The translations under genes and the position numbers were made by a program. A stretch of 43,243 nt of DNA, from the IMG/VR virus record IMGVR_UViG_3300045988_144944. The stretch is one strand, 5' to 3'. Below are positions 1-43,243 of the stretch, one piece after another (position 1 is the first letter of the stretch; each line of letters begins with the position of its first letter). Below the pieces are notes generated by a model that saw only the letters and a list, made by a program, of their open reading frames with translations, had not been told where the DNA came from and did not search any database. This stretch comes from a virus.

Positions 1-188
1 TACCAAAAGAATAGCTTATTATTTAATGCTAATTAACAAAAAGTTTTGCTTGGGGGGGGCAAAAGTTATTATTTTGATCGAATTTTCGATTTAAGGAACT
101 TTCTTCAGACTGCTTGGCATCTTATCCAGATAAAAAAGAAAGTGCCTTAAAAGGCAAAAAAAATAAGCCCGGATAACTCCGAGCTTAT
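1..188 (-). repeat. Intergenic cassette copy A. It is truncated by the window start and is the continuation of copy E at the window end. Terminator-type upstream end, agcat patch allele.
   Basis: Bases 1-144 are identical to 43100-43243. Bases 1-188 align with 31788-31972 (copy C) apart from the 5-nt patch, one SNP and an A8 versus A7 run. Confidence 0.9.
156..186 (-). terminator. Rho-independent terminator ending the late (structural/lysis) unit
   Basis: Minus strand reads AAGCTCGGAGTTATCCGGGCTT, a 9-bp stem with one mismatch and a GTTA loop, followed by ATTTTTTTT. The same hairpin recurs after ssb at 31941-31970. Confidence 0.75.
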
Positions 189-867: not shown

Positions 868-873
868 TTTATT

Positions 874-1392
874 TCATTTTAAATTTTGGTATTCCTCAAT
901 AGCATTAAAACAAGGACATTCTTTCATCCATTCAAAAGGTTCTATAATGCCATTTCCGTTTAAATCTTTAGAAAAGTCCCTATGCCCCTTTATTGTTGCT
1001 TCTGGGTATCTTTTCATCAGCTCTTTTAACAGCCATGTTATCGCTTCTTTTTGCTCTTTTGTTCTTGTATCTTCTGCCTTTCCTTGTTCATTTAACCCGC
1101 CAACGTAACAAATGCCGATAGAATTACTATTGTGCCCGGAAACATGCGCCCCAATTTCAGAAATATAACGTCCTATTTCAATTTCTCCATTTTGCAAAAT
1201 AATAAAATGATAACCGCATGTATGCCCGCTCTTTTGCTGCTTTTTAAAGCCCCTATTTTTATGCCATACATCTAATATTTCAACATTACATTTCACGCCC
1301 AATTTAGTAGCACTGCAATGTATAACTATATCTGTTATCTTTCTATCGCTTTTATCTTTCTCTAAAGCTGTTAAAATGCTATTTCTATCCAT
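874..1392 (-). CDS. N-acetylmuramoyl-L-alanine amidase (endolysin, Amidase_2/PGRP-like)
   Basis: Motifs IVIHCSAT, GYHFII and GAHVSGHNSNSIGICYVGG are typical of zinc amidase_2 endolysins. The gene sits next to a multi-TM ORF. Confidence 0.85.
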   Translation of the reverse strand: MDRNSILTALEKDKSDRKITDIVIHCSATKLGVKCNVEILDVWHKNRGFKKQQKSGHTCGYHFIILQNGEIEIGRYISEIGAHVSGHNSNSIGICYVGGLNEQGKAEDTRTKEQKEAITWLLKELMKRYPEATIKGHRDFSKDLNGNGIIEPFEWMKECPCFNAIEEYQNLK

Positions 1393-1891
1393 TTTGTTTG
1401 TCTTTATCTATTTCGTTTATCTCATCCTTGTATTTCTCGATTATAGGCTTCCAATAAGAAGGCATCGCCCGAGTAAATTCCAGCCTTAATATATGAAAAA
1501 TAATTCTTAATGCTACATTTTTCGGATAAGCTTTTATCAAATTTTTGAACGAATTTGTCGCATACACGTATATAAAAACATACGTTAATGATTTTATCAC
1601 AAAATAGGCTTCTTTTTTATCTCCGCATAAAATAACTATGCTATAAAGCACATGTATAATAACAAGATAAAGACAAATTTCTAACAAAGCATTTTTGAAC
1701 TTGCTAAACTTGAAATTTATACATCTCGATATTGAAACACCGTCTGCTCTCATTCCGGCAAATAGGTTAAATGCAAAAGCTATTATAAGCGCAAATATGA
1801 AATTGCTTGTTGTTGTCATATATGCAATTATAGGACTTGTTACCGTGACGAAAATAATTCGCAATTGCTCTAAATTAAATAATCTATCCAT
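1385..1891 (-). CDS. Holin-like multi-pass membrane protein
   Basis: 168 aa with about four hydrophobic helices. It overlaps the amidase start by 8 nt. The call rests on position. Confidence 0.5.
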   Translation of the reverse strand: MDRLFNLEQLRIIFVTVTSPIIAYMTTTSNFIFALIIAFAFNLFAGMRADGVSISRCINFKFSKFKNALLEICLYLVIIHVLYSIVILCGDKKEAYFVIKSLTYVFIYVYATNSFKNLIKAYPKNVALRIIFHILRLEFTRAMPSYWKPIIEKYKDEINEIDKDKQNG

Positions 1892-1895
1892 ACAA

Positions 1896-10600: not shown

Positions 10601-11311
10601 TAATGTTTTTCCCAAAGCTTTCGCACCGTCACCTATACCGGCTAAAACGCTTTTCGCATCTTCTCCGCCGCTTCCCAATTTCAAAAGACTTTCACCGAAA
10701 GAATTGTTTAACCCTAAAGCATTTTTTAAATTGTCGCCGTATGAAATTATTGCATCAGAAGCTTTTTCATAATTCCCGACATTTAATTGATACTTTCCGG
10801 TAGCCTGCTGCAAGCGGTTCATTTCTTCATATAACGCTCTTGTTTGCTGCTCTAATTCTCGCCCCTCTTTTGTCGCTTCTCTCTCCTCTTTTGTCATGTT
10901 GTTGAGGTATATTTTATTGAGCGAATATTGAGCGGATAATCTGTTATAGCTACCTTCAACCGATTGGTTGATTTTTACCAACAATTGGTTTATTTGATTT
11001 TGCTCTCTGGTTGCTTGCCTTAACTCGGCTAATCTCTGCGCATTCTCGCTTTCCGCAAAAGCTAATTCCCGTTGTGCTTTGGCTAATTTGTCGGCATCAT
11101 CCGCCGCTTTTTTCGTTGCCTGCCTTCCTTGTTCCGTTGCCCCTGACACATTCTCCAAGCTTCCTGCAAGTTTTACAGCTTCACTTCTTATGTTCTTTAA
11201 CGCATTTGTATAAGTGTCTGAAAGCTCATCTAATTGCTTTATCAATTCCGTTATCGAATTGTCCGGGCTTACAAGATCGCTGTATTTTATAGGGTTATTA
11301 TTATTTGCCAT
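7685..11311 (-). CDS. Tail tape measure protein
   Basis: 1208 aa with long Q/E/K/L coiled-coil tracts and central and C-terminal glycine/alanine-rich hydrophobic segments (e.g. FIAIAGIAGVGAGF, GFLGALPAIAVMWASFAA). It is the largest ORF in the tail module. Confidence 0.85.
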   Translation of the reverse strand: MANNNNPIKYSDLVSPDNSITELIKQLDELSDTYTNALKNIRSEAVKLAGSLENVSGATEQGRQATKKAADDADKLAKAQRELAFAESENAQRLAELRQATREQNQINQLLVKINQSVEGSYNRLSAQYSLNKIYLNNMTKEEREATKEGRELEQQTRALYEEMNRLQQATGKYQLNVGNYEKASDAIISYGDNLKNALGLNNSFGESLLKLGSGGEDAKSVLAGIGDGAKALGKTLLGLLSNPVFIAIAGIAGVGAGFKWWYDYNAGLVEATRLTQQFTGKQGDDLKAFRNNVQAVADAFNVDFKETLMASNAVAQQFGISADESLKLIQDGFVSGANANGEFLDTLREYPAYFKEAGISADEFIAIIAETNKQGIFSDKGIDTIKEANIRLREMTTATASALEGIGISSEQVQKDLQNGSKTTFDVMQEVSLKLNELPDSATEVGTAIADIFGSAGEDAGLQYLRTLGNISTNLDEVKEKAGILGQLQEEQLNSQLELENALSGLFDLTGGNFETLTTRAKVFVNDGLTAIIKGVISIINYFIELYNDSLAFRALWQSIVVSFKNGVDTIGNIFGFLIDIVKSFGTTLKGAFTLDFDLIKQGFADYANSYKTLVANQVKDITENVQKGIENANEKIKPITIPVTTSSSGSKDTGNNYQSEEVIITETQTSTDKEIENAYKKNIQIRRKLEDELLKLESDDWKKRETQTKNQYQRQIEDLKHQLLTEKNLTKQNKEDINKTIQALEQQQTQALLKLDNERQLNRLELEKKSLELQLNTISEGSEEELKLRRELIAKEKQIALLQNKQKAPSQRRSEGEITSEFGQREQSVADTYINEQLAIFSKQQELSKSEFELLESTEKQKTLYRLNAEKERLQKVIELNKKYAGSLSEIEIQTIQNTIAKIEKEIENTQKKGGDKKDIYDIFGLDLNDDEKQAITTSVSFAISQLDSYLQKKIEIANAAVEAADKEVDSAQSALDSELQARANGYANNVEMAQRELELAKRNQDKALKEQQRAQKQQEAMQAAQQASSLVTATALIWAQMGFLGALPAIAVMWASFAASKIKAAQLTKAAQQEESYGEGTVELLKGGSHQSGNDIDLGMKPDGTRRRAEGGEFFAVINKRNSRRYGRIIPDIIKSLNSGTFEKKYMNIYDDQNGFSINVNNQTDITELNDNVRKIKEQNKTKMLVDSQGNIILIYKNLKRKIRK

Positions 11312-16701: not shown

Positions 16702-17805
16702 TTAAGCTCCGCTCGGAAAACTTGCTGCATTTGTTACATATACGGGCATTCCAAGAGGTTCATTTGCTGCTCTTGAAGCGATTTCGGCTTTTATGATAGG
16801 ATTAGCAACCGTTGCAGCATCACTATTGTATGCTACTAAGAAAGCAACATCAACACTAAAGCCAAAGTATTCTTTAACAGCGCAAGTTAAGTCCTCAGTT
16901 GCTGCACCCATAATTGAAGATTGATCTCCAACGGCTGTATAATAATGTGAGCCAACCGGCAGGTCTATCAACGGCAAACGAACAACATCCCATTCGTGGA
17001 AATTAGCCTTTGTTCCTCGAAGTGCTTCGCGATCAACACGTGTTAAGACTCCAACATTACCGTCTGCAACAGCAAAGAATGTTCCGTTTTTGCTCGATTC
17101 ATTCAACACATTATTTGTATAATGAAGAACTTTATTATCATATTCCATGCGTTTGTTAACATCGTTGTAAACGCCATGTTGAGCAAGCTTTCTAACCAAG
17201 CTATCAACTCCGGCATTACCGATAATGTGAATCATTTCCGGGTAACAGTTAGCACGCATAATAGGGTTAATGTCACCGAGAATTTCAGTTGCCATTTGTG
17301 TCGGAACTTCGATAACATTACCTTGCTTTGTATAATTCAACAAGTCTTTAAATACCTGTGTTTTGTTTGCTTCTAATGCGGCAATAGCTCCCTTATCCAA
17401 AGTATCAGCCAACGCACGAGTTATTTTCTCTAACTTTCTAAAGAAGTCGTGTTCGTACGTAATTTCATTATTCATATATGCTGCAGGAGTCATGGTAAAC
17501 CCAACTGCATAAGTAGCCCATACAATTGTATATAATGCCGAAGTATTTTCATCATCCGGAATTACACAAGAACGAACGTTGTAAACCTGAACATCGCCGT
17601 CATAATTAATAACGGGTATTTGCACTGTGTTACCAATAGACGCAAATGCTCTGTCTCTTAAATTTTGGCTAATAATCGAAGTAGGTGCGTTTGTTTGTTC
17701 AATGAAAAAATCAAGTGCTCCATACTCGCAAGGACGGGTCATATTCCTATCAAATTCAGGATTTTCAACCCGCCAATTTTGAAGTCTCGTTGCTACTAAA
17801 CTCAT
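16702..17805 (-). CDS. Major capsid protein (HK97-fold candidate)
   Basis: 367 aa placed after a coiled-coil scaffold-like ORF. Local GC is markedly higher (28/60 at 17001-17060), and the gene is followed by a strong terminator. Confidence 0.65.
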   Translation of the reverse strand: MSLVATRLQNWRVENPEFDRNMTRPCEYGALDFFIEQTNAPTSIISQNLRDRAFASIGNTVQIPVINYDGDVQVYNVRSCVIPDDENTSALYTIVWATYAVGFTMTPAAYMNNEITYEHDFFRKLEKITRALADTLDKGAIAALEANKTQVFKDLLNYTKQGNVIEVPTQMATEILGDINPIMRANCYPEMIHIIGNAGVDSLVRKLAQHGVYNDVNKRMEYDNKVLHYTNNVLNESSKNGTFFAVADGNVGVLTRVDREALRGTKANFHEWDVVRLPLIDLPVGSHYYTAVGDQSSIMGAATEDLTCAVKEYFGFSVDVAFLVAYNSDAATVANPIIKAEIASRAANEPLGMPVYVTNAASFPSGA

Positions 17806-18819: not shown

Positions 18820-19098
18820 TTAATTTAATGCTATTACACTCACTTTTGCCCCACTCACGTTCATTACTGCTATTGAATATTTGGGCGCATTTTCTGTTGT
18901 TGAATCAATCAAATAACCTAATACTTTGCCGTAATTCTGTTTGTTGGCTGCTTCCGTTGAAACTAATACAACATCTGTAATTGTCCCTCCCTTAATGCAA
19001 TTAATGAGTTTTGTTTTTACATCAGCTTCAAGAGCTGCCATTGCTGTTGATACGACAATAACCAAATTGTCCTGTTGAGCTATTTGTGACATAATCAA
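18820..19098 (-). CDS. Hypothetical head-module protein
   Basis: 92-aa ORF between the repeat-bearing ORF and the scaffold-like ORF. Confidence 0.5.
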   Translation of the reverse strand: MIMSQIAQQDNLVIVVSTAMAALEADVKTKLINCIKGGTITDVVLVSTEAANKQNYGKVLGYLIDSTTENAPKYSIAVMNVSGAKVSVIALN

Positions 19099-19116: not shown

Positions 19117-19659
19117 TTATTTTTTCTCTTTTGCTTTCTCTTTTGCTTCTGTATCAGGCAAAATTCCGGCTGCTTTCTCTTTTGCTTCTGTATCAGGCAA
19201 AATTCCGGCTGCTTTCTCTTTTGCTTCTGTATCAGGCAAAATTCCGGCTGCTTTCTCTTTTGCTTCTGTATCAGGCAAAATTCCGGCTGCTTTCAATTCC
19301 GCTAAAATTTCAGCCTTTAAAGCTTCTTTTTCTGCTGCCTTTTGTTCGGCTATTCTTTTTTCTTTTGCTTCCTTGATTTTAGCTTCATTGTTTTTTAACC
19401 ACTCTGTTGGGTCGTGGAGAATATCCACTGTATAACCTTGCTTTTTCAAGTTATGCAACAAAAAGTTGTCAAATGATTTCTTACCGAAAACCTGTAATCT
19501 TGGTTTACTCATCCTTTCCCCTGTTTCGGCATTAAATTTTTTTACTTCTATCCGGCAATGATACAAATGTTCTTCTCCTTCCGGAACAACGAAATTTTCA
19601 GGCGTAATATCCAAAATTTTCGTCACATTTTTAGTTTTTGTTTTCTCTCGCATAGTCAA
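19117..19659 (-). CDS. Hypothetical protein with a C-terminal 4x13-aa repeat (AAGILPDTEAKEK)
   Basis: 180-aa ORF overlapping the end of the portal gene. It has a globular N-terminal half, a K/E/A-rich helix, and then four identical 13-aa units. Confidence 0.55.
   Translation of the reverse strand: MTMREKTKTKNVTKILDITPENFVVPEGEEHLYHCRIEVKKFNAETGERMSKPRLQVFGKKSFDNFLLHNLKKQGYTVDILHDPTEWLKNNEAKIKEAKEKRIAEQKAAEKEALKAEILAELKAAGILPDTEAKEKAAGILPDTEAKEKAAGILPDTEAKEKAAGILPDTEAKEKAKEKK
19134..19289 (-). repeat. 39-bp tandem repeat x4, perfect
   Basis: The unit ctttctcttttgcttctgtatcaggcaaaattccggctg is read four times head to tail on the plus strand. Confidence 0.9.
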
Positions 19660-21349
19660 ATAATTTATTTGAAATAATATTTATTTTCTCGTTAAATGGT
19701 ATCTCTGTACCAAATTCAATGATGTTTATATTTTCCCTTTCAAATCTACGAATAAAATTTGAAAAATTAATTTTCACTTTTAATTCATCCTCGCTTATTA
19801 ACCCTTTAGAATACAGATCAACAACTTCATTTCTCGTTAAATGTCTGTAAGGCTCTAATTCTGCCAACAAAATCATTCTTTGTAATTGTGTAGGGTTATT
19901 CCGGTATTCCGTTTCAATGATTTGGTTGTGAAGCAAATCAAGTTCTCCTTCGCTTGAACCACTATCCTTTGCAACCTTATATCTTTGTCTCAACTCGTTT
20001 GCATCGTATATATAAAATTCAGTTCCTAAGTTGATTTTAGCCGAAATAAACGAGTTTCCATACCTCAACCTACATATTGTTTCGTCAACGAATTGTTGTG
20101 CCTTCTCAAAGCCTTTTTTAACTCTATTAAGTACGGTTGTTTGACTTTCAAAGTTAGCTTTTATTTGTTGCTCATTTAAAGCATCACGAGTTGTAATTTC
20201 TTCGTTCGTTCCAACAATTGAAGTAATTATATCATCCCGCAATCTTTTAACCTCTGAAACGTTGTAATCAAGGCTGCTTCTGTCAACAGAAAGCATTTGA
20301 ATAGGGTTTTTTAAGTCTGGTTGATCGTCTCCCGGAATAGGTATTTGAACAAAAGAACCTGCCCCTATAATAGGCTTATGCCCGCATTTCGGGCAAGGAA
20401 TTAAAATACCTGCTTGATCGACTTTGTAATAACCTTGTTTATCCTTTAGAAAGCCACCGTCGCAATAATCTTCATTATCCGCTTTATAATCGCAATTTTG
20501 TTCATATCCGGAGTATATAGGATAAGCTCCGTATAAATCAAGATGCCTTTTTGATAAATGGTAAAACAAATACCAATCTAAACTTTCCAACTCTTTGGTT
20601 AATGGTGACATCTTAATATCTGGCTCTCTAAGGTTAATTGGTTCATCCCAGAAGAAGCGGGCGGGACAATAACCTAAGTTATGCCTACTTTCTAACAACA
20701 ACTCTCCAATGTTTCCATTTCTTTCCTGAAAGATATAGTAACTTAGATCATCAATAACAGCGATTTTGTCTCCATTTTGACGGAAAATGATATAATTCAT
20801 TATGCCGTTATCTTTTGCGGAATAGGTTATAACGCTTTCTATTGGTAGCCAATAAAAATAGGGTTCAGGATATTTTTCTTCACTTCCTTTCAAAGGCATA
20901 TCAACAATTAAAACGCTGTTTATTTCGCTTTTGAAAAATTCCCAACCTTTTGTACTCCAAATTTCAGGCTCTTTCAATACTTCTTGCCTGTACCATTCCC
21001 AATCATCCCGTTGTTCATTGTTCAAGAATTGGTAATTAAATGCGGGATTTCTGCCTTCAAAAATTCTGCTAAGTTTATCAAAACAAATTCCCGTTATCTC
21101 GTTGGTTTTTACGGGATAACGGAAAAGTGTTTTAAATACCTTGAACTTATCTTGCGGAATTAAATTAGAAACAAAATTCAGAAAATCGGTAGTAGGTAAA
21201 CACATTTGAGGCGTTAAGTTCGTCTGTACATGGAACTTTATCCTATTTTGGTGATAAATAGCTCTATTTATTACCTGCCTTTTTCGATTTTCCCTTATTA
21301 TTTCGGGTATTTTGTTTAATTCTAATACCATTTGTAAGATCAAATTCAA
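19631..21349 (-). CDS. Portal protein (putative)
   Basis: 572 aa, the largest head-module ORF between terminase and capsid. The call rests on size and position. The start is uncertain because it overlaps the upstream 72-aa ORF. Confidence 0.55.
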   Translation of the reverse strand: MNLILQMVLELNKIPEIIRENRKRQVINRAIYHQNRIKFHVQTNLTPQMCLPTTDFLNFVSNLIPQDKFKVFKTLFRYPVKTNEITGICFDKLSRIFEGRNPAFNYQFLNNEQRDDWEWYRQEVLKEPEIWSTKGWEFFKSEINSVLIVDMPLKGSEEKYPEPYFYWLPIESVITYSAKDNGIMNYIIFRQNGDKIAVIDDLSYYIFQERNGNIGELLLESRHNLGYCPARFFWDEPINLREPDIKMSPLTKELESLDWYLFYHLSKRHLDLYGAYPIYSGYEQNCDYKADNEDYCDGGFLKDKQGYYKVDQAGILIPCPKCGHKPIIGAGSFVQIPIPGDDQPDLKNPIQMLSVDRSSLDYNVSEVKRLRDDIITSIVGTNEEITTRDALNEQQIKANFESQTTVLNRVKKGFEKAQQFVDETICRLRYGNSFISAKINLGTEFYIYDANELRQRYKVAKDSGSSEGELDLLHNQIIETEYRNNPTQLQRMILLAELEPYRHLTRNEVVDLYSKGLISEDELKVKINFSNFIRRFERENINIIEFGTEIPFNEKINIISNKLFDYARENKN

Positions 21350-22144: not shown

Positions 22145-22271
22145 AATCTTAAATTTTAATGTTAGAAATAATTTTACTTTGATTTAGTGTACCCCTTACT
22201 ATTTGCAAACTTACTATTTTCATTCATAAAAACAAAAATAAACACCTAAAATTTCCATTATCAATATATTA

Positions 22272-22308
22272 TAAAAAATATGTGCCTATCTTCCCAGACA
22301 GACACATA
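22272..22308 (-). terminator. Possible intrinsic terminator
   Basis: Minus strand reads TATGTGTC-(14 nt)-GGCACATA, an 8-bp stem including one G:U pair, followed by TTTTTTAT. The large loop lowers confidence. Confidence 0.35.
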
Positions 22309-22407
22309 AAAAGCATTTTATATTTAGGTTAGTCATTCTTGCAAACGTACAATCTAATAATCTCTATATGGTCAAAAAGAAATATAAAATGCTATTCGTT
22401 TATCAAA

Positions 22408-22710
22408 CTAATAATTCGCTATTCTTTGTTTAGTATTTGCTACAAAAGTTTTATTTGAACCTTTGATATTGATTTCTCCCAAGTTCTCCCAATCTCCATT
22501 TGCCCATGTCTTTGTTATACAAGAGCCTTTATATTTATCAAGATTGGCTTTAATGAGTTTCTTTGCCGTTGCAAGGGAGTAAAATGTAAATGTATCTTTC
22601 CATTCCTCACATTCAACATCACATTCCCACTTTCCCAACTCTTTGTTAAATCTATCTCCTATATAAGTGATCCTTATAGGTTCAGTAAAATAAACTGTAT
22701 ATTGTTTCAT
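22408..22710 (-). CDS. Hypothetical protein
   Basis: 100-aa ORF, the second gene after cassette B. Confidence 0.5.
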   Translation of the reverse strand: MKQYTVYFTEPIRITYIGDRFNKELGKWECDVECEEWKDTFTFYSLATAKKLIKANLDKYKGSCITKTWANGDWENLGEINIKGSNKTFVANTKQRIANY

Positions 22711-22716: not shown

Positions 22717-23001
22717 TTAAAATTCGATATTATTTTCAATAGCTGCACAAGCGATAACCCAAACTTGTTTGTCAGAAACAAAAGCAACTTGCCTATTGTA
22801 AGGGTTCATTTTGCTATCTATTGTTTTAGCTACATTCGAAGCGAAAACATTTAATTTTATTACGCTATCTAAAAGAGTTGATAACTTGTTGAATGCTATT
22901 TCAAAAAATGATCTATTATTTACATCTGTGTTAGCATACAATTTAATTTCATTTGCCAAATTTTGCGCTCTCTTGTAATCTTCAGTTCCTTTCGTAATCA
23001 T
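22717..23001 (-). CDS. Hypothetical protein (start revised to the ATG at 23001)
   Basis: The track ORF starts at a TTG (23043) that is the last 3 nt of the -7 promoter box. The first ATG is residue 15 (MITKG...), about 40 nt downstream of the box. Confidence 0.5.
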   Translation of the reverse strand: MITKGTEDYKRAQNLANEIKLYANTDVNNRSFFEIAFNKLSTLLDSVIKLNVFASNVAKTIDSKMNPYNRQVAFVSDKQVWVIACAAIENNIEF

Positions 23002-23027: not shown

Positions 23028-23222
23028 TATTTTGATATGACAAATATACAGCTTATTTTTATTCTACCAAAAGAATAGCTTATTATTTAGTATCAATTAA
23101 CAAAAAGTTTTGCTTGGGGGGGGCAAAAGTTATTATTTTGATCGAATTTTCGATTTAAGGAACTTTCTTCAGACTGCTTGGCATCTTATCCAAAAGAAAA
23201 AGAAAGTGCCGGAAATAGGCTA
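23028..23222 (-). repeat. Intergenic cassette copy B (read-through-type upstream end, gatac patch allele)
   Basis: It aligns base for base with 36046-36240 except for the 5-nt patch and two SNPs. It contains the TAG stop codon of terL at 23220-23222. Confidence 0.9.
23041..23071 (-). promoter_or_regulatory. Bacteroidetes-type promoter (TTTG-N19-TATATTTG) driving the structural/lysis unit
   Basis: Plus caaa at 23068-23071 is the -33 TTTG. Plus caaatata at 23041-23048 is the -7 TATATTTG. The spacer is 19 nt. Confidence 0.75.
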
Positions 23223-28597: not shown

Positions 28598-29896
28598 TCA
28601 ACTTCTGAAATTAAATGAATATTCTTCTTTGGTAAATGGGGATAATGAAGCGATCGCTTCTATTGCATCATTATATTGAGGATCTACTCCAACAAGATAA
28701 TTAGTCCCGGTTGATGGGCAAGTCATCTTCACCCATGCCATAGGATCATCGCCAAGCTCGGGAAAAGTCTCTTTTGTTTTCAAAAGTTCTACTGTCTCTA
28801 TATCCCCGTTAGCATGATGTATTGTATTTGTATCTGTTATTTCCGCTCCTAACAGGTTTATTATACCTTCTGCCCCTAAAACCTCATATATCGCCCCTTT
28901 TATATCCAAGTTTTTCTCCTGTAAAAATTGATCCTTTATTATTGAATCTTTATTTTCTACTACCCATTTGGGTATTGGCCTGCCGTTAATAAAATAATAC
29001 GAACTTCCATCCCTGAATTTTACTGCCGCTGTAGAGGTGGAATGTAAACGCCCTTGCGAATTTAGTTCAACATATATCGGAGGCTGAATGGCAAAGACAC
29101 AATTATCAAATTCATACGCATTAAATACCCCTGATTTTAGTATCTTTTTATATTGTTTAAAATTAAAATTATCAAGGATGTTTATTTTCTCAAAGAAATC
29201 ATAAAATGATATCCTTCCATAATTAGATAAACCTATATATGAAGAATAACTGTGAAATATGTTGACAGAATCCCAGACAGAAGCCCCGACAGAAGCCCAG
29301 ACAGAATCCCCGACAGAATCCCCGACAGAATCCCAGACAGAAGCCCAGACAGAATCCCCGACAGAATCCCCGACAGAAGCCCTGACAGAATCCCTGACAG
29401 AATCCCAGACAGAATCCCAGACAGAAGCCCTGACAGAATCCCAGACAGAAGCCTCGACAGAAGCCCAGACAGAATCCCAGACAGAATCCCCGACAGAAGC
29501 CCTGACAGAATCCCAGACAGAATCCCAGACAGAATCCCCGACAGAAGCCCTGACAGAATCCCTGACAGAAGCCTCGACAGAATCCCAGACAGAAGCCCCG
29601 ACAGAAGCCTCGACAGAAGACCGAATAGAAGAACCTAATTCATCTTTAATCAACTTATTTAATTTTTTATCTTTGAGAATAGCAATAGTAATTAGACAGC
29701 TTATCCAACTGTCGCAATACACTACCTTCGGTTTTGGCTTGTGAAGAAGATCTGTATATAACCATTCAATCCCCTCTTCAAACATCGTTTTGTCTATCCC
29801 CTTTTGATTCTTTACGTTATCAAAAAACAGGTTGATCCATTCATCTCGCGTCTGGAGCATTAATTTTTTTTGCTCTTCGGTTAGTTTTTCCAACAT
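28598..29896 (-). CDS. Tetrapeptide-repeat protein: 30 units of (W/G/R/E)(D/A)SV between globular N- and C-terminal domains
   Basis: 432 aa. The central 120 residues are a strict 4-aa periodic array. The C-terminal part (GRLHSTSTAAVKFRDGSSYYFINGRPIPKWVV) resembles a widespread domain of unknown function that I recall as DUF6745-like; this was not checked. Confidence 0.7.
   Translation of the reverse strand: MLEKLTEEQKKLMLQTRDEWINLFFDNVKNQKGIDKTMFEEGIEWLYTDLLHKPKPKVVYCDSWISCLITIAILKDKKLNKLIKDELGSSIRSSVEASVGASVWDSVEASVRDSVRASVGDSVWDSVWDSVRASVGDSVWDSVWASVEASVWDSVRASVWDSVWDSVRDSVRASVGDSVGDSVWASVWDSVGDSVGDSVWASVGASVWDSVNIFHSYSSYIGLSNYGRISFYDFFEKINILDNFNFKQYKKILKSGVFNAYEFDNCVFAIQPPIYVELNSQGRLHSTSTAAVKFRDGSSYYFINGRPIPKWVVENKDSIIKDQFLQEKNLDIKGAIYEVLGAEGIINLLGAEITDTNTIHHANGDIETVELLKTKETFPELGDDPMAWVKMTCPSTGTNYLVGVDPQYNDAIEAIASLSPFTKEEYSFNFRS
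29264..29623 (-). repeat. 12-bp tandem repeat x30 (plus-strand unit GACAGAA[T/G]CCNN)
   Basis: The array is read directly. Seven to eight of the 12 positions are invariant, and variation is limited to three or four positions of the unit. Confidence 0.95.
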
Positions 29897-31714: not shown

Positions 31715-31761
31715 TTTCTTTCTCCCAATTTTATTTATTAAGTATAATTTTACCTGTATGA

Positions 31762-31792
31762 CAAATATACAGCTTATTTTTATTCTACCAAA
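31762..31792 (-). promoter_or_regulatory. Bacteroidetes-type promoter (TTTG-N19-TATATTTG) driving the accessory/terminase unit
   Basis: Plus caaatata at 31762-31769 and caaa at 31789-31792, with a 19-nt spacer. Confidence 0.75.
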
Positions 31793-31940
31793 AGAATAGC
31801 TTATTATTTAGTATCAATTAACAAAAAGTTTTGCTTGGGGGGGGCAAAAGTTATTATTTTGATCGAATTTTCGATTTAAGGAACTTTCTTCAGACTGCTT
31901 GGCATCTTATCCAGATAAAAAAGAAAGTGTCTTAAAAGGC

Positions 31941-31970
31941 AAAAAAATAAGCCCGGATAACTCCGAGCTT
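31941..31970 (-). terminator. Rho-independent terminator ending the early units, 2 nt after the ssb stop
   Basis: Same hairpin as at 156-186 (AAGCTCGGAGTTATCCGGGCTT), followed by ATTTTTTT on the minus strand. Confidence 0.75.
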
Positions 31971-31972
31971 AT

Positions 31973-32398
31973 TTAAAACGGCAAATCATCATCTATATTT
32001 TGAATATTTTCCGGTTGTGGCTCTGGTTCTGGAGGATGGATATTTTGTATATCATTGTTTTCCTTTTTAGTTAGAAGCTCTATAAAATTTATATATACCT
32101 CTGTTACATACCTTTTTATTCCTGCTTGATCATCATAACTTCTATTTCTTAATTCTCCTTCTATGTATATTTTATCCCCTTTTTTAACGTATTTCTCAAC
32201 AATGTTAGAAATACCTAACAAGTTAGATACAACATAATGAAATTCCGCTTTATCCGGAACTTGAACGCCAGATTTTGTCGTATAACCTTTTTTGTTTGTC
32301 GCTAATTGAAATTGTGCGATTTTCCCCCCATTATCGAAAACTTTTATTGCAGGGTCATTACACACATGCCCCAACAAAATAACTTTATTTACACTCAT
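31973..32398 (-). CDS. ssb: Single-stranded DNA-binding protein
   Basis: The OB-fold N-terminus MSVNKVILLGHVCNDPAIKVF...YIEGELRNRSY, a P/E/Q-rich linker and the acidic tip DDDLPF are canonical for bacterial and phage SSB. Confidence 0.9.
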   Translation of the reverse strand: MSVNKVILLGHVCNDPAIKVFDNGGKIAQFQLATNKKGYTTKSGVQVPDKAEFHYVVSNLLGISNIVEKYVKKGDKIYIEGELRNRSYDDQAGIKRYVTEVYINFIELLTKKENNDIQNIHPPEPEPQPENIQNIDDDLPF

Positions 32399-32511
32399 AA
32401 GAACAATTTTAATATAAATGCTATAAGACTATAAATTCCCCAGATATAACATATAATTGTTGTTACAACAAATGATATAAACACGATTTTGTAATACTTT
32501 TTTGCTTTCAT
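32395..32511 (-). CDS. Small hydrophobic peptide (38 aa, below the ORF-track cutoff)
   Basis: Translation MKAKKYYKIVFISFVVTTIICYIWGIYSLIAFILKLFL. It has ATGA overlaps at both ends, with 32508-32840 and with ssb. Confidence 0.35.
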   Translation of the reverse strand: MKAKKYYKIVFISFVVTTIICYIWGIYSLIAFILKLFL

Positions 32512-32840
32512 ACATCATTAAATTTTGCACCTTCGATTAGGTATTCTTTTTTATTATCACTCCAGCCAGCGAACGAATTTAAAGCTTTTCTATCGCTATC
32601 GAAAACAAATTCAAAAAAATAACCTCCAAAACTGCAAGGTCTAACTATTTTAACCAATCTCCCCAAAATAAACGATCTATATTTGAAATAAGAACTATTA
32701 TCAGGAATAAAAAAAATACGCTTTTCTTCATTTTTAGAATTTTTATCGGCATTACTTTTTTTATTCATAATTTCAAAATCTCTTTTTATCGATAATCTTG
32801 AAATTTCCCTATAATCAACTTTTCGTTTTTTTAATCTCAT
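32508..32840 (-). CDS. Hypothetical protein
   Basis: 110-aa ORF with a 4-nt overlap with the upstream gene. Confidence 0.5.
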   Translation of the reverse strand: MRLKKRKVDYREISRLSIKRDFEIMNKKSNADKNSKNEEKRIFFIPDNSSYFKYRSFILGRLVKIVRPCSFGGYFFEFVFDSDRKALNSFAGWSDNKKEYLIEGAKFNDV

Positions 32841-36045: not shown

Positions 36046-36240
36046 TATTTTGATATGACAAATATACAGCTTATTTTTATTTTACCAAAAGAATAGCTTA
36101 TTATTTAATGCTAATTAACAAAAAGTTTTGCTTGGGGGGGGCAAAAGTTATTATTTTGATCGAATTTTCGATTTAAGGAACTTTCTTCAGACTGCTTGGT
36201 ATCTTATCCAAAAGAAAAAGAAAGTGCCGGAAATAGGCTA
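36046..36240 (-). repeat. Intergenic cassette copy D (read-through-type upstream end, agcat patch allele)
   Basis: It aligns with copy B over 195 bp. It contains the TAG stop of the methyltransferase gene at 36238-36240. Its two private SNPs are c>t in the promoter spacer and c>t in gcttggYatc. Confidence 0.9.
36059..36089 (-). promoter_or_regulatory. Bacteroidetes-type promoter (TTTG-N19-TATATTTG)
   Basis: Plus caaatata at 36059-36066 and caaa at 36086-36089, with a 19-nt spacer. Confidence 0.75.
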
Positions 36241-37197
36241 AAAATCTAATTTCAAATTAATCTTCTCATTATTTATTCGCCCATTTGCGATATCGAAATA
36301 TTTTTTGTCAATTTCATAACCTATAAATTTTCTTCCTTCTAAAATAGCGCATTTACACTCTGTGCCACTACCGGCAAATGGAACAACAATTAAATCATCT
36401 TTATTTGTCAATGTCGTTATCAACGCTCTTGTAAGCATTTCAGGCTTTACAGTCTCATGATCTATATTTCTACTCTTAACATGTTCGTTTTTAAAATGAA
36501 GAATTTCATTTAAGGAAAGATGATTATTGAATACACGTGTTTTTATGCTCTTTTTTAAGCTTTCATAATCTGACAACACTTTTGAGTAATCTTCATCTAT
36601 ACACAAAATAGATTGTAAAATTTTCCATTGCTTCGAATTTGGAATATTATACCCTTTCTCCCAATTCGTCACCTGTCCGCCATGATTAACATTTTTATAA
36701 AATTTACCTTGTTCCGCAACTTCATTTATCGACAATTTTCTAATTTCTCTTTGTCTTTTAATGATTATTGAAAATGGATTTTTTTCAGAAAAGTTTTTCA
36801 ACAAATGTTCTAAAGTGCTCATTTTTGAATACATTAAAATTCGCTCTGTACAAGGAGCGAATTTCCTTAACAAAGGACTATTTTTCAAATTCATAAAGTC
36901 CCCTTTATCCCAGACTAAATTATTCAACAAATGAAATTTTTTATCTAAAATAATTTGTGTATAAGCTATTTTATTTGAGCTTCCATACCAAAGAAGCGTA
37001 CCACTGTCACTCAAAATTCGGAAACATTCATTTGCCCATTTTTCGACATCTACAAGATAAGATTCAAAGCTATTCCATACAAAGTCAAATTTCCCTTTTG
37101 TTTTAAAATATGGCGGGTCAGCAATTATCAAATCTGCAACACTTTCTTTTAAATCATTATCTAAAAAATCGGAATTATACAACTTGTTATATATCAT
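36238..37197 (-). CDS. DNA methyltransferase (N6A/N4C, beta-class motif order)
   Basis: Motif IV LIIADPPYF lies near the N-terminus and motif I VVPFAGSGTECKCAILEGRKFIGYEID near the C-terminus. No adjacent restriction endonuclease was seen. Confidence 0.8.
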   Translation of the reverse strand: MIYNKLYNSDFLDNDLKESVADLIIADPPYFKTKGKFDFVWNSFESYLVDVEKWANECFRILSDSGTLLWYGSSNKIAYTQIILDKKFHLLNNLVWDKGDFMNLKNSPLLRKFAPCTERILMYSKMSTLEHLLKNFSEKNPFSIIIKRQREIRKLSINEVAEQGKFYKNVNHGGQVTNWEKGYNIPNSKQWKILQSILCIDEDYSKVLSDYESLKKSIKTRVFNNHLSLNEILHFKNEHVKSRNIDHETVKPEMLTRALITTLTNKDDLIVVPFAGSGTECKCAILEGRKFIGYEIDKKYFDIANGRINNEKINLKLDF

Positions 37198-37939: not shown

Positions 37940-38823
37940 AATTGTATCTCCTCTTTACACATTAATTCAAAAACACGCTTTATTTCTTTTCTTCTCGCTA
38001 TTTTATAAACAAGGTTATCTAATTCTTTACATTCCTTGCCAACATTCCGAACATAGGCTGCTGTAAATTTATTAACCAACCCGGACGAAGCTCTACTTAA
38101 AAATTCGCAAAAAGCCTCTTTTCTATCTTCTTCTTTATCAAGATTTATACCTTCGGAGAGACCTCTCCGACATAACCATTCATAAACAAACATTTCATCG
38201 AAAAAATCAAGCTCAAAAACACCTTTGTATTTAAATTTAAGGAACACATGACGGCATCTATTTTTTATATTTTCGCTTTCTTTTACGTTACTTATAAGCT
38301 TATTTTCAGACTTATTTAACTTGTTATAAACATGTGATATTACACTGTTTTTTTTCGCTAAATAAGCGTTTAAAACACGTGAAAAATAATCAATGTTGAA
38401 ATTCTGGTAATGGCTTTTATCTGCATTTCCTGCCTTGTCTTTCGGTAAATAGTTATTTAATTCCCCTATCAACAAAAATTCAAAAGCAATTTTTATTTCG
38501 CTTAATGATAGTGTAGAAAAATATTTTTTTAACATGTCTAACAACCTCGTACAAGTGTACGACCAAATACTCACATCATCTGGTATATTATACCCAACAT
38601 CGAAAGCTATATAGCGAAAAAGGCTTCTTGTTTTTTCAATGAGAACATTATCTGGAATTTCTGCAATTGGCGTTTTAACAGATGCATTTAGTATTTGTTT
38701 CTCTATGCTTGAACAAACGTTATATTTTGCATCATAGTTAACAATTTTTCTTCTTACATCGATAGCCTTAATATTTCCGCTATTATTCCTGAATAAAGTT
38801 ATATCACTCATTTTCAAAATCAT
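37936..38823 (-). CDS. Hypothetical protein; possible replisome-loading partner of the initiator, by position only
   Basis: 295-aa ORF overlapping the end of the initiator-like gene. No Walker motif was seen. Confidence 0.3.
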   Translation of the reverse strand: MILKMSDITLFRNNSGNIKAIDVRRKIVNYDAKYNVCSSIEKQILNASVKTPIAEIPDNVLIEKTRSLFRYIAFDVGYNIPDDVSIWSYTCTRLLDMLKKYFSTLSLSEIKIAFEFLLIGELNNYLPKDKAGNADKSHYQNFNIDYFSRVLNAYLAKKNSVISHVYNKLNKSENKLISNVKESENIKNRCRHVFLKFKYKGVFELDFFDEMFVYEWLCRRGLSEGINLDKEEDRKEAFCEFLSRASSGLVNKFTAAYVRNVGKECKELDNLVYKIARRKEIKRVFELMCKEEIQL

Positions 38824-39721
38824 TTAAAAAATCCATTGCGCCAACGACATTTATTTTTTTACCTTCATGTTTAAAATCTTGCTTTAAATGCAACTTTCCT
38901 CTTTCAGAATCTCCCCTAATGAAATTTCTAATTGTTGCAACCCAACCCCTCTTTGTCCTCTTTACGCCTTGCTTCGTGTCTGACCAATCGCACACAGCGT
39001 TAAAGTAGTAGATTAAATCTATTTTTTTGAACTCCTCACCATTGAACATTTTTTCAAAATCTGAAAAATCCGGCTTGCCATTTTCATTTTTAACGCTTTT
39101 GTAAACTTCCGAATTTCGAAAAATGGTTGTTCTTTCTTTTATTTCTTTTTCGTGCGTTATGGTGCAAATTTCATTTGCGCCATTATTATTTATAGTATCT
39201 ATATTTATAGTATCTATATTATATGGAGTTACGTTTTGTAACCCGCTCTGGGTTACGTTTTGTAACCCGCTCTGGGTTACGTTTTGTAACCCGCTCTGGG
39301 TTACGTTTTGTAACCCGCTCTGGGTTACGTTTTGTAACCCGCTCTGGGTTACGTTTTGTAACCCGCTCTGGGTTACGTTTTGTAACCCGCTCTGGGTTAC
39401 GTTTTGTAACCCGCTCTGGGTTACATTTTGTTCGTCTAAAGAGTCATAATTGAACCTATAAAAGCATTTCTTTACAGCCGCATTAACATGCTTCTCGTAT
39501 TTTTCAATTATTCCCGCTTCGACTAATTTTTTCAACTTGCAGATAACATTCTTTCTATCTATCCCCACCCAATCGGCAATATAATCGATAGAGCCATTAA
39601 ACCAGGCATTTCCTTCTTGTGTGTGTCCGAGAATAAGAGCTGTTATTAACAGCTCACTATTTTTCAATTTAAGCTTATTTCTTAAATATCCCGGAACAAT
39701 CAAATAACTTTCATCTCTCAT
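38804..39721 (-). CDS. Replication initiator-like protein (N-terminal winged HTH, internal 8x GLQNVTQS repeat)
   Basis: The N-terminus (LITALILGHTQ...GSIDYIADWVGIDRKNVICKLKKLVEAGII) looks like a wHTH. The gene body contains the iteron array, an arrangement analogous to lambda O and its ori. Confidence 0.55.
   Translation of the reverse strand: MRDESYLIVPGYLRNKLKLKNSELLITALILGHTQEGNAWFNGSIDYIADWVGIDRKNVICKLKKLVEAGIIEKYEKHVNAAVKKCFYRFNYDSLDEQNVTQSGLQNVTQSGLQNVTQSGLQNVTQSGLQNVTQSGLQNVTQSGLQNVTQSGLQNVTQSGLQNVTPYNIDTINIDTINNNGANEICTITHEKEIKERTTIFRNSEVYKSVKNENGKPDFSDFEKMFNGEEFKKIDLIYYFNAVCDWSDTKQGVKRTKRGWVATIRNFIRGDSERGKLHLKQDFKHEGKKINVVGAMDFLNDFENE
39191..39220. repeat. AT-rich 15-bp direct repeat x2 (tatagtatctatatt), a possible DNA unwinding element
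   Basis: Two perfect copies lie 7 nt from the iteron array. Confidence 0.6.
39228..39443. repeat. Iteron array: 8 perfect 24-bp repeats plus one degenerate copy (putative origin of replication)
   Basis: The unit gttacgttttgtaacccgctctgg is read eight times head to tail at 39228-39419. Each unit contains the dyad GTTAC-N5-GTAAC. A ninth copy at 39420-39443 is diverged. Confidence 0.6.
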
Positions 39722-42802: not shown

Positions 42803-43048
42803 TTAATGATTATAAAATGAAACTTTAATGCCCCTTCTAAGTTTGATATATACAACATCATCTTTGCTTTTAAAAGCTTTTGATAACATCTTATTTGCCA
42901 TTTCTTGCCCGACTATTTTTATTAACCCATAAATACCAATCAACGTGTTTATCTTTTTATTGTTATAAATTCCGGCAACTTTAATCTTGAAAGATTTATT
43001 TATTTCTGTTACTGAATAATTTAACCCTTTATAAATTTCAAGTTCCAT
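42803..43048 (-). CDS. Hypothetical early protein
   Basis: 81-aa ORF, the first gene after cassette E. Its ATG lies 28 nt downstream of the -7 box. Confidence 0.5.
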   Translation of the reverse strand: MELEIYKGLNYSVTEINKSFKIKVAGIYNNKKINTLIGIYGLIKIVGQEMANKMLSKAFKSKDDVVYIKLRRGIKVSFYNH

Positions 43049-43074
43049 TTTTAATTTATCTTTTTGATTACACT

Positions 43075-43243
43075 ACAAATATACAGCTTATTTTTATTCT
43101 ACCAAAAGAATAGCTTATTATTTAATGCTAATTAACAAAAAGTTTTGCTTGGGGGGGGCAAAAGTTATTATTTTGATCGAATTTTCGATTTAAGGAACTT
43201 TCTTCAGACTGCTTGGCATCTTATCCAGATAAAAAAGAAAGTG
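43075..43243 (-). repeat. Intergenic cassette copy E (same genomic copy as A across the circular or terminal junction)
   Basis: 43100-43243 is identical to 1-144. The core is identical to the other copies, and it carries the agcat patch allele. Confidence 0.9.
43076..43106 (-). promoter_or_regulatory. Bacteroidetes-type promoter (TTTG-N19-TATATTTG) driving the early unit
   Basis: Plus caaatata at 43076-43083 and caaa at 43103-43106, with a 19-nt spacer. Confidence 0.75.

What the first reader, a model, noticed from the sequence alone, without database searches (positions are those of the whole stretch)
23028..23222. A near-identical ~195-bp intergenic cassette occurs four times per genome and splits it into four co-directional transcription units
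Copies lie at 1-188 joined to 43075-43243 (one genomic copy), 23028-23222, 31757-31972 and 36046-36240. All share the same orientation. Across roughly 165 bp of shared core they differ only by a 5-nt patch and a few SNPs. In the transcription direction each copy ends with TTTG-N19-TATATTTG, an exact match to the Bacteroidetes primary-sigma consensus (-33 TTTG / -7 TAnnTTTG). An A-rich leader and the first ATG of a gene block follow 28-45 nt later. A promoter needs about 40 bp, so the extra ~130 bp held at near-100% identity across four loci is not explained by promoter function alone. Four ~190-bp direct repeats should also be recombination targets in a phage that encodes its own exonuclease and resolvase. 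Their persistence therefore implies selection. I do not recognise this cassette as a described element.
Basis: partly seen in the sequence, partly recalled or inferred. Interest (0 to 1): 0.8.

Follow-up and report, generated by a model that had tools for sequence, protein, structure and literature searches.

The report
Repeated promoter cassette in Bacteroidales phage
A roughly 190-bp non-coding cassette ending in a host-type promoter is conserved across a family of gut Bacteroidales phages; this phage carries four near-identical copies kept alike by copy-to-copy recombination, much like the promoter/stem-loop cassettes of T4-like phages, and the role of its conserved upstream half is still unknown.

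Summary
There are four co-oriented copies with a 169-nt core that is 94.7-98.2% identical. Each copy ends in TTTG-N19-TATATTTG.

The window is a circular map (144-nt end overlap) of a PDS1/B40-8-like Bacteroidales siphovirus. The cassette is not private to it. About 80 full-length homologues occur in related gut phage contigs and isolates, normally one per genome at the lysis-to-early junction.

The upstream 130 nt does not drift. TGGATAA, the block AAAGTnGCTTAAATCGAAAATTC-N4-AAAATAAC and the inter-block spacings are conserved about as well as the promoter. No conserved RNA fold or Rfam match was found.

What is special here is amplification to four sites and homogenisation. Variant patches pass the four-gamete test and sit at different loci in about 97%-identical strains, which indicates ongoing gene conversion.

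"Four transcription units" is only partly right. Only two copies follow a strong terminator. The 23-kb copy drives two ORFans that end at a strong terminator, and the structural genes have their own consensus promoter at 22206-22236.

Best reading: a composite insulator/regulatory-site/promoter cassette, functionally like T4-type PeSLs and morons. The factor that reads the conserved core is unknown.

The parts
23028..23222 (-). Cassette copy c23k. It starts at the TerL stop codon (TAG, 23220-23222) and ends at the predicted transcription start, a few nt past the -7 box.
   Evidence: (nhmmer 23223-23039, E 6e-42)
31757..31974 (-). Cassette copy c31k, including the strong upstream terminator T1 (31945-31974).
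36046..36240 (-). Cassette copy c36k. It starts at the stop codon of the methyltransferase ORF 36238-37197.
43047..43243 (-). Junction copy cJ, promoter-proximal part. It continues at 145-188 after the 144-nt end overlap.
1..188 (-). Junction copy cJ, upstream part. Bases 1-144 duplicate 43100-43243. Terminator T1 lies at 163-188 and hairpin 2 at 143-156.
   Evidence: T1 plus hairpin 2 -21.8 kcal/mol, z -5.9
23208..23220 (-). Hairpin 2 (GCC-N7-GGC) followed by a T-run. It is weak in c23k and c36k. In c31k and cJ it is the 5-bp variant GCCTTTTAAGGC. Equivalent positions: 31929-31940, 36226-36238, 144-155.
   Evidence: -3.6 kcal/mol
23186..23192 (-). Invariant TGGATAA block (also at 31907-31913, 36204-36210, 43221-43227). 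It matches 8 of 9 positions of a DnaA box on the other strand.
23129..23167 (-). Conserved core motif GAAAGTTCCTTAAATCGAAAATTCGATCAAAATAATAAC (also at 31850-31888, 36147-36185, 43164-43202). It is near-invariant in relatives.
23099..23129 (-). AU-rich hairpin with a poly-C8 loop, then a T-run (also at 31820-31850, 36117-36147, 43134-43164).
   Evidence: -3.0 kcal/mol; C9 in one strain copy
23041..23088 (-). Extended promoter: A-rich upstream stretch, -33 TTTG (23068-23071) and -7 TATATTTG (23041-23048). The same elements lie at 31762-31809, 36059-36106 and 43076-43123.
   Evidence: consensus as described in PMC7366714
22279..23001 (-). Cargo of c23k: two ORFans (22717-23001 and 22408-22710) closed by a strong terminator (22279-22308). 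Together with c23k they form a moron-like insertion that is absent from relatives.
   Evidence: -18 kcal/mol, z -6.3
22206..22236 (-). Separate, non-cassette consensus promoter (TTTG-N19-TAAGTTTG) for the structural/lysis block. It sits at the ancestral promoter site after TerL.

Best explanation
The cassette is a composite, DNA-level transcription-punctuation element of a lytic Bacteroidales siphovirus.

In the direction of transcription it holds:
1. a terminator-like hairpin with a T-run (doubled by a strong terminator in two copies);
2. a TGGATAA block;
3. a roughly 40-nt sequence-specific core (AAAGTnnCTTAAATCGAAAATTC-N4-AAAATAA) at a fixed distance;
4. a weak AU hairpin with a T-run;
5. 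an A-rich upstream stretch;
6. a consensus host sigma-ABfr promoter.

It damps incoming transcription and restarts it from a strong host-RNAP promoter. The conserved core is most likely a binding platform for a phage or host protein that tunes these promoters together.

The ancestral state is one full copy at the lysis-to-early junction, plus shorter promoter-only relatives elsewhere in the genome. In this lineage the full cassette was copied onto three more junctions. Once it was copied together with its terminator, and once as the head of a two-ORFan moron. The copies are kept 95-98% identical by gene conversion through the phage's own recombination genes. As direct repeats at the edges of variable gene slots, they also act as portable homology for module exchange, as PeSLs do.

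Shown: the anatomy, the conservation, the copy history and the gene conversion. Inferred: promoter and terminator activity, protein binding to the core, and a role in shuffling.
For: Promoter:
- Exact TTTG-N19-TATATTTG in all copies. The pattern has 9 hits against 2.7 expected in the window. The consensus is described in PMC7366714.
- The same extended promoter family recurs 3-5 times in PDS1, AS73P1 and TCUEAP2.

Terminator parts:
- T1 plus hairpin 2 fold at -21.8 kcal/mol, z -5.9. The scan flags 163-188, 143-156 and 31945-31974.

Family-wide conservation:
- 88 of the 126 loci held at that point show blastn similarity to the cassette. About 80 of these are full-length homologues.
- Against 24 non-lineage representatives, identity to this phage's copy is 72% in the core motif and 70% in the promoter. 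It is 47-49% in the spacers and 23% in the adjacent CDS.
- Block spacing is almost fixed: 34 nt in 60 of 70 copies, and 117-118 nt in 64 of 70.
- Old duplicate copies in L096, L077 and L098 are only 70-73% identical yet keep every block.
- Strain-level polymorphisms fall only in the segments that also vary between relatives.

Primary-sequence rather than structural constraint:
- RNAalifold gives -3.75 kcal/mol with a covariation term near 0. There is no Rfam hit.
- In the consensus alignment the putative core hairpin varies in its 3' arm while the 5' arm stays the same.

Phage-specific:
- The core motif has one hit in 185,579 genomes, on a 46-kb phage-like MAG contig.

Lineage-specific amplification:
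- Relatives with 65-77% TerL identity have no cassette or repeat near TerL.
- PDS1 and AS73P1 have no promoter at the c31k site.

Gene conversion:
- All four combinations of the two variant blocks occur among the four copies.
- Alleles sit at different loci in roughly 97%-identical strains.

Association with variable cargo:
- ORFans follow c23k.
- A 1.5-kb insertion follows c36k in strains L147 and L149.
- Different ORFs lie between cassette pairs in L096 and L077.
- The phage encodes recombination genes.
Against: - There are no transcript-end data, so promoter, terminator and insulator activities are predictions.
- Hairpin 2 and the AU hairpin are too weak (-3 to -3.6 kcal/mol, z about -1.5) to be efficient terminators in c23k and c36k. 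Insulation there is doubtful.
- In relatives, 5'-half-like copies occur far from any promoter. One overlaps the start of a small gene after RuvC, about 400 nt upstream of a promoter. One lies in the 5' leader of the TerS operon, downstream of its promoter. One lies just before the tape-measure gene. This fits a promoter-proximal operator poorly and keeps an RNA-level or other DNA-level role open.
- An HNH gene splits the two halves in some phages without obvious harm.
- No binding protein is identified. The conserved HTH regulator (67% identical to PDS1 gp12) also occurs in B40-8, which lacks the core motif.
- The DnaA-box resemblance is not statistically supported.
Confidence: 0.6

Rival explanations
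1. The conserved upstream half works as RNA. It would be a cis element in read-through or leader transcripts, for example an antitermination or processing site or a 3'-end stabiliser, read by a sequence-specific RNA-binding factor. In this reading the promoter is merely adjacent.
For: - c23k and c36k abut the upstream stop codon with no strong terminator, so the upstream half should be transcribed.
- In relatives the motif also lies inside transcribed regions. It is found in the TerS-operon leader downstream of a promoter, at the start of a CDS, and before the tape-measure gene. It always has the same orientation.
- The single sequence folds somewhat better than shuffles, z -2.2.
Against: - There is no consensus structure or covariation in 18 diverse copies.
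- There is no Rfam match.
- The z-score is the same on the opposite strand, as expected for DNA palindromes.
- At the ancestral site the element lies downstream of one or two terminators and upstream of the promoter, so it would rarely be transcribed.
- All genes are on one strand, so orientation bias is uninformative.
Confidence: 0.15
2. The upstream half is a DNA site for a non-transcriptional process, such as small-terminase recognition (pac), replication priming or a recombination hotspot. The multiple copies would serve that process.
For: - A core-motif copy lies 150-200 nt upstream of the TerS gene in PDS1, BKO1-3, AS73P1 and TCUEAP2.
- TerS is Sf6-like. The Sf6 type is a headful packager (from my own knowledge), and a headful packager could tolerate several pac sites.
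- Fixed spacings suggest a nucleoprotein complex.
Against: - In this phage no copy is near TerS.
- The best-conserved copy in every relative lies at the early promoter, not at the packaging genes.
- The likely origin is the 24-nt iteron array at 39228-39443.
- No genome-end data are available.
Confidence: 0.08
3. Only the promoter matters. The upstream 130 nt would be hitch-hiking DNA: a relic of an old duplication of the RuvC/gp19 junction, copied along by long conversion tracts.
For: - The upstream half resembles the RuvC-end/gp19-start region of relatives.
- Near-identity in this genome is explained by gene conversion alone.
- An HNH insertion separates the halves in some phages.
Against: - Blocks are near-invariant and spacing is conserved across phages whose portal proteins are only 65-72% identical, including a phage of a different host order.
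- Duplicates that are 70-73% identical keep all blocks.
- Flanking DNA is unalignable.
Confidence: 0.1
4. The cassette is a mobile element (MITE-like or homing-associated), or its copies are an assembly artefact.
For: - The window's ends and several public contigs break inside the cassette.
- One contig (L145) joins non-adjacent flanks.
- HNH genes insert into the cassette in relatives.
Against: - No inverted repeat is reported at the cassette ends, and the aligned flanks share no direct repeat that would mark a target-site duplication.
- Every copy has distinct, syntenic flanks that are confirmed in independent assemblies.
- No transposase is present.
Confidence: 0.04

Closest known systems
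PeSLs (promoter-early stem-loops), the 'mobile regulatory cassettes' of T4-type phages (Arbiol et al. 2010, PMC2839356; Comeau et al. 2014, PMC4122927)
   Same: - Both are intergenic and repeated many times in one orientation.
- Both combine a stem-loop terminator or attenuator, an AT-rich upstream stretch and a consensus host-sigma promoter.
- Both sit next to ORFans and variable genes.
- In both, the copies recombine with each other.
   Different: - There is no sequence homology, and the phage group and host sigma factor differ (sigma-ABfr -33/-7 rather than sigma-70).
- This cassette is two to three times longer.
- It carries an extra sequence-specific core, conserved across genera, between stem-loop and promoter. 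PeSLs have no equivalent.
- There are only four copies, placed at major module junctions rather than dozens in hyperplastic regions.
- Mini-circles are not shown. One chimeric contig is the only hint.
Morons of lambdoid and other siphoviruses. A moron is a promoter, gene and terminator unit inserted between conserved genes. This definition is from my own knowledge (Juhala et al. 2000; Hendrix).
   Same: c23k, two ORFans and the strong terminator at 22279-22308 lie between TerL and the ancestral structural-gene promoter. The whole unit is absent from relatives.
   Different: The moron's promoter is a copy of the phage's own early-region cassette rather than foreign DNA. The other three copies head core gene blocks.
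The 96-bp repeat noted in the Bacteroides fragilis phage ATCC 51477-B1 genome paper (Hawkins et al. 2008, PMC2535602); in the B40-8 record NC_011222.1 analysed here it belongs to a 5-copy family
   Same: It occurs in the same phage supergroup. It is a repeated intergenic unit that follows terminators and carries a TTTG/TAnnTTTG promoter.
   Different: It is not homologous (no HMM hit). The repeat covers the promoter plus a conserved 5' leader rather than a long upstream region. The copies are 76-93% identical.
The single-copy homologous cassette of PDS1-like gut phages (PDS1, PD491P1, C1_85S2P, BKO1-3, AS73P1 and about 80 IMG/VR contigs)
   Same: It is truly homologous. Block order and spacings are the same, and overall identity is about 66%.
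   Different: - These phages usually have one full copy plus diverged half-copies.
- The region is not annotated as a feature in the five isolate records examined, and the PDS1 paper does not discuss promoters, terminators or intergenic regions of the phage.
- They also have a conserved GC hairpin in the 5' leader that this phage lacks.

Membership tests
Bacteroidota sigma-ABfr promoter | -7 box TAnnTTTG with -33 TTTG about 19 nt upstream (PMC7366714) | tested here: met
   All four copies have TTTG-N19-TATATTTG. The pattern is enriched, 9 hits against 2.7 expected.
Bacteroidota sigma-ABfr promoter | Transcription start a few nt downstream of the -7 box | not testable with these tools
   Needs dRNA-seq or 5' RACE of infected cells. 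No such data set was found.
PeSL-type composite terminator/promoter cassette (a functional class, not a homology group) | A stem-loop plus an AT-rich stretch plus a consensus host promoter in one repeated intergenic unit | tested here: met
   Anatomy. The stem-loops are weak inside the cassette and strong only where T1 is attached.
PeSL-type composite terminator/promoter cassette (a functional class, not a homology group) | Copies flank ORFans or variable genes | tested here: inconclusive
   True for c23k, for c36k in strains L147 and L149, and for the cassette pairs in L096 and L077. The cJ and c31k copies head conserved gene blocks.
PeSL-type composite terminator/promoter cassette (a functional class, not a homology group) | Recombination between copies (indels, mini-circles) | tested here: inconclusive
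   Gene conversion is shown. A circle or duplication junction is seen only in one short contig, L145, which may be chimeric.
PeSL-type composite terminator/promoter cassette (a functional class, not a homology group) | Sequence homology to the PeSLs of T4-type phages | tested here: not met
   A blastn search of the phage collection with the cassette found no match at all. Its only homologues are PDS1-like Bacteroidales phages.
Intrinsic terminator | A GC-rich hairpin immediately followed by a U-run | tested here: met
   This holds only for T1 at 163-188 and 31945-31974 and, marginally, for hairpin 2 in those two copies. It does not hold for c23k and c36k (-3.6 kcal/mol).
Moron | A promoter, gene(s) and terminator inserted between genes that are adjacent in relatives | tested here: met
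   This applies to c23k only.
Structured RNA family (Rfam) or new structured RNA | A match to a covariance model, or a conserved fold with covariation | tested here: not met
   no hit at gathering score; the best E-value is 0.34; no consensus fold.
MITE or other non-autonomous transposon | Terminal inverted repeats and target-site duplications | tested here: not met
   No inverted repeat is reported at the cassette ends, and the aligned flanks share no direct repeat.
DnaA box | TTATCCACA-like 9-mer, enriched or clustered | tested here: inconclusive
   Each copy has TTATCCAAA or TTATCCAGA, an 8 of 9 match. Window-wide there are 20 such sites against 14.5 expected, which is not significant.

The most novel reading that the evidence does not exclude
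The TGGATAA block and the 40-nt core, held at fixed distances from the promoter, would be the operator of a so far unrecognised global switch. One phage or host protein, reading the same site at every early and middle promoter, would turn a whole family of abundant gut Bacteroidales phages on or off. In this lineage the same cassettes would double as PeSL-like recombination handles that excise, duplicate or swap whole gene blocks; contig L145 would be such a product.
Probability: 0.25. Interest if true: 0.65.

Novelty: new variant of a known kind. Interest (0 to 1): 0.5.

Why it matters
Almost nothing is known about how lytic siphoviruses of gut Bacteroidales organise and time their transcription. 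This cassette gives a concrete handle that can be tested.

- It provides a strong, portable, host-RNAP promoter with a conserved upstream control region, shared by at least 80 gut phage genomes.
- It is a natural experiment: one genome in which four gene blocks are wired to the same control DNA.
- It extends the PeSL idea, in which regulatory cassettes double as homology for module exchange, from T4-like myoviruses of Proteobacteria to siphoviruses of Bacteroidota.
- It gives a clear case of concerted evolution of non-coding repeats inside a 43-kb phage genome.
- Practically, the repeats explain why assemblies of these phages break or mis-join at these points.

Tried and rejected
- A blastn search of the cassette against 50,697 phage records found nothing. 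Homology to PDS1-like phages appeared only with sensitive local blastn and nhmmer.
- Rfam gave no hit at gathering score or at the permissive threshold. The tRNA scan was also empty.
- RNAalifold on 18 diverse copies gave no consensus fold. Hand-inspected candidate stems (T-run against A-run, core hairpin) are low-complexity or lack compensatory changes, so I built no covariance model.
- A small ORF in the cassette was rejected: at most 9 codons, and not conserved in relatives.
- An antisense promoter in the cassette was rejected. The consensus search found no plus-strand hit inside any cassette.
- A phage sigma factor was rejected. The gene called 'sigma factor' in PDS1 corresponds here to an Sf6-like small terminase.
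- The DnaA-box and IHF-like resemblances are not statistically supported.
- The HTH regulator as a motif-specific partner could not be tested by co-occurrence, because it is present throughout the supergroup, including B40-8, which lacks the motif.
- The host-genome scan for the core motif found only one phage-like MAG contig.
- Literature searches found no transcript maps for these phages and no earlier description of this cassette.

Full report
**1. The observation**

The repeat finder lists the cassette as families D3-D5 and D7. The window's first 144 nt are identical to its last 144 nt. It is therefore a circular map of 43,099 bp whose closure point lies inside a cassette.

All plausible genes are on the minus strand. 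Read in that direction, the four genomic copies share a 169-nt core, from CACTTTCTTTTT to GCTGTATATTTGT. The cores lie at 23040-23208, 31761-31929, 36058-36226 and 43075-43243. Pairwise identity is 94.7-98.2%. Two copies (31.7 kb and the junction) extend further upstream through a shared strong terminator. The other two begin exactly at the stop codon of the upstream gene, TerL or a methyltransferase.

Each copy ends in TTTG-N19-TATATTTG. That pattern is enriched in the window, with 9 hits against 2.7 expected. It matches the sigma-ABfr consensus quoted in PMC7366714.

Every locus, with its flanks, recurs in independent public assemblies. The order of the blocks matches related isolates.

**2. 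What the genome is**

PHROG and Pfam matches identify the following:
- large terminase, Sf6-like small terminase, portal, capsid protein, tape measure and amidase;
- exonuclease, SSB and a RuvC-like resolvase;
- a replication initiator with internal iterons;
- two DNA methyltransferases.

The portal is 71-72% identical to those of Bacteroides phage BKO1-3, Alistipes phage AS73P1, Bacteroides phage C1_85S2P and Parabacteroides phage PDS1. It is 65% identical to Elizabethkingia phage TCUEAP2 and about 53% identical to B40-8 and B124-14. No tRNA, RNA polymerase or sigma factor gene was found, so host RNA polymerase must transcribe everything.

**3. The cassette is a family trait, not a private repeat**

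Of the 126 loci held at that point, 88 show cassette similarity, and about 80 of these are full length.

In 30 representatives the same order of blocks is seen:
1. a variable GC hairpin with a T-run, which terminates the lysis module;
2. a second hairpin with a T-run;
3. TGGATAA;
4. about 25 variable nt;
5. AAAGTnGCTTAAATCGAAAATTC-N4-AAAATAAC;
6. a small AU hairpin;
7. a T-run;
8. AAAATAAAA;
9. TTTTGG-N19-TATATTTG.

Identity of this phage's copy to 24 non-lineage representatives is 72% in the core motif and 70% in the promoter. It is 47-49% in the spacers and 23% in the neighbouring coding DNA. Distances between blocks are almost fixed: 34 nt in 60 of 70 copies, and 117-118 nt in 64 of 70.

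The core motif is phage-specific. A scan of one genome per prokaryotic species found a single hit, on a 46-kb contig binned into a MAG.

**4. Copy number elsewhere**

PDS1, BKO1-3 and AS73P1 each carry the following:
- one full cassette at the lysis-to-early junction;
- a diverged upstream-half copy right after the RuvC gene, overlapping the start of a small gene;
- a promoter-half copy 350-400 nt further on;
- a short core-motif copy in the long 5' leader of the TerS operon.

AS73P1 and one contig also have an upstream-half-like copy just before the tape-measure gene.

Some contigs have two full copies 1.2-1.4 kb apart. These bracket different accessory ORFs and are only 70-73% identical, yet both keep every block. 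In four contigs the two halves lie about 650 nt apart; in the two I examined (L033, L039) an HNH homing-endonuclease gene sits between them.

B40-8 has its own, non-homologous five-copy promoter-plus-leader cassette. The genome paper for the B40-8 strain ATCC 51477-B1 mentions only a '96 bp perfect repeat'.

Repeated promoter cassettes are thus a habit of this supergroup. Four full-length copies at 95-98% identity are peculiar to this lineage.

**5. How the four copies arose and stay alike**

Relatives with 65-77% TerL identity have no cassette or repeat within 10 kb of TerL. Instead, a promoter directly follows TerL and precedes the gene that begins MICKCPAA.

In the window that ancestral promoter survives at 22206-22236. 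Between it and TerL lie c23k, two ORFans with no family match, and a strong terminator. This is a moron whose promoter is a copy of the phage's own cassette.

PDS1 and AS73P1 have no promoter at the site of c31k. Here that site carries the cassette together with a copy of the lysis-module terminator (family D7).

The two variable blocks in the core occur in all four combinations among the four copies, which is a positive four-gamete test. In strains about 97% identical overall, the alleles sit at different loci:
- the junction copy has AGCAT here but GATAC in two other strains;
- a third allele, CATCC, is shared by the 23-kb and junction copies of other strains;
- c36k differs at four sites between this window and L147/L149.

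That is concerted evolution by gene conversion, plausibly through the phage's exonuclease, SSB and resolvase. Each interval between copies holds essential genes. Deletion products therefore cannot survive, and the repeats persist without any need for selection on their identity.

**6. Transcription map implied**

Strong minus-strand terminators lie only at 163-188, 31945-31974 and 22279-22308. The cassette's own hairpins fold at -3 to -3.6 kcal/mol with z about -1.5.

The likely terminator-bounded blocks are:
- junction promoter to SSB, with c36k as an internal promoter;
- c31k to the ORFans, with c23k as an internal promoter;
- the distinct promoter at 22206 to the end of lysis.

The largest block is not driven by a cassette at all.

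**7. What the upstream half does**

The evidence points to primary-sequence recognition:
- no consensus fold or covariation;
- no Rfam match;
- equal fold z-scores on both strands;
- in the alignment, the putative core hairpin changes its 3' arm while the 5' arm stays fixed;
- near-invariant 17-nt and 8-nt blocks with fixed spacing.

I therefore favour a protein-binding platform that couples to the promoter.

Several points weaken this reading. Motif copies in relatives lie in transcribed DNA, away from promoters. The HNH insertion shows that the halves can be separated. An RNA-level role, or a packaging or recombination role, remains possible.

No binding partner was pinned down. TGGATAA resembles a DnaA box, but such sites are not enriched. 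A conserved HTH regulator exists, but it also occurs in phages without the motif.

**8. Comparison with known systems**

By function, the closest are the PeSLs of T4-type phages. These are repeated intergenic units made of a stem-loop terminator, an AT-rich stretch and a consensus host promoter. They are associated with ORFans and recombine with one another.

The present cassette is not homologous to them and uses the Bacteroidota promoter type. It is longer and far fewer in number. It also carries a conserved sequence-specific core that PeSLs lack.

The 23-kb copy with its cargo also fits the definition of a moron. The cassette is not a MITE and not a known RNA.

**9. Verdict**

It is a new variant of a known kind rather than a new kind.

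The promoter half is ordinary. The points of interest are the conserved, fixed-spacing upstream half of unknown reader, and the clear gene conversion among four copies.

Interest is 0.5.

Noticed in passing
window 1-144 and 43100-43243: The window ends are identical over 144 nt, and the overlap lies inside the cassette. Public contigs of the same phage also begin or end inside cassettes. Assemblies of this phage evidently break or close at this repeat.
   Followed up: yes
L145 (OHOQ01003609.1) 433-3499: This metagenome contig joins the TerL end and a cassette to the gene that normally follows c31k. That is the junction expected from a circle or tandem duplication of the 31.7-23.2 kb block. It could equally be an assembly chimera at the repeat.
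   Followed up: partly
window 23107-23114 and the same place in the other copies; L001: Every copy has a C8 run in the loop of the AU hairpin, about 40 nt upstream of the -33 box. Relatives have no such run there. One strain copy reads C9. This could be slippage that changes the phasing between core and promoter, or a sequencing error.
   Followed up: no
window 39228-39443: Eight or nine exact 24-nt direct repeats lie inside the replication-initiator-like ORF 38804-39721, where they encode LQNVTQSG repeats. This is probably an iteron origin inside the initiator gene. The window-versus-L147 alignment breaks and overlaps within this array, suggesting that copy number differs between strains.
   Followed up: partly
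window 29179-29694: A long 12-nt tandem array encodes about 40 four-residue repeats (W/G/R/E, D/A, S, V) in ORF 28598-29896. The only family match is an uncharacterised PHROG.
   Followed up: no
window 19132-19326: Four to five 39-nt repeats encode AAGILPDTEAKEK units at the C-terminus of ORF 19117-19659, just downstream of the portal gene.
   Followed up: no
L149 1100-2475; L147 6027-7373: L149 carries a 1.5-kb insertion between the first small ORF after c36k and the SMC-like ATPase. It holds two ORFans and a C5 cytosine methyltransferase. L147 has about 1.35 kb of DNA at the same point that does not match the window, probably the same insertion (not examined).
   Followed up: partly
L033 10400-10960; L039 7600-8165 (L044 and L103 show the same split): In L033 and L039 an HNH (NUMOD-type) homing-endonuclease gene of about 165-185 codons is inserted inside the cassette, right after AAAATAA and before the promoter half. 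L044 and L103 have the two halves the same distance apart and were not examined.
   Followed up: yes
L143 (B40-8) 7-125, 16711-16835, 18932-19031, 20944-20999, 32481-32600: B40-8 has five copies (76-93% identical) of a different cassette. It consists of a promoter plus a 45-nt conserved leader running up to the ATG. At least three of the copies are visibly preceded by a hairpin plus T-run. The 2008 genome paper reported only a 96-bp repeat.
   Followed up: partly
L005 (PDS1) 22240-22610; L127 31254-31815; L128 42300-42700: The TerS operon of relatives has a long (about 250 nt), purine-rich, conserved 5' leader. It contains a core-motif copy, and a T-run lies shortly before the ATG. It could be a regulated leader. 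This window has no equivalent.
   Followed up: no
L005 (PDS1) 3149-3192, 10835-10881, 44265-44306; L149 about 1098-1125: A small repeated GC hairpin (TAATAACCAAGCCGGGG..CAATCCCCGGCATAAC) sits directly after stop codons at several gene ends in PDS1. It also occurs in the insertion of strain L149.
   Followed up: no
window whole; L005, L006, L127: The window has 33.6% G+C, against 44.7-47.1% in its closest isolates. The host may therefore be a lower-GC member of the Bacteroidota than Parabacteroides, Bacteroides or Alistipes.
   Followed up: no
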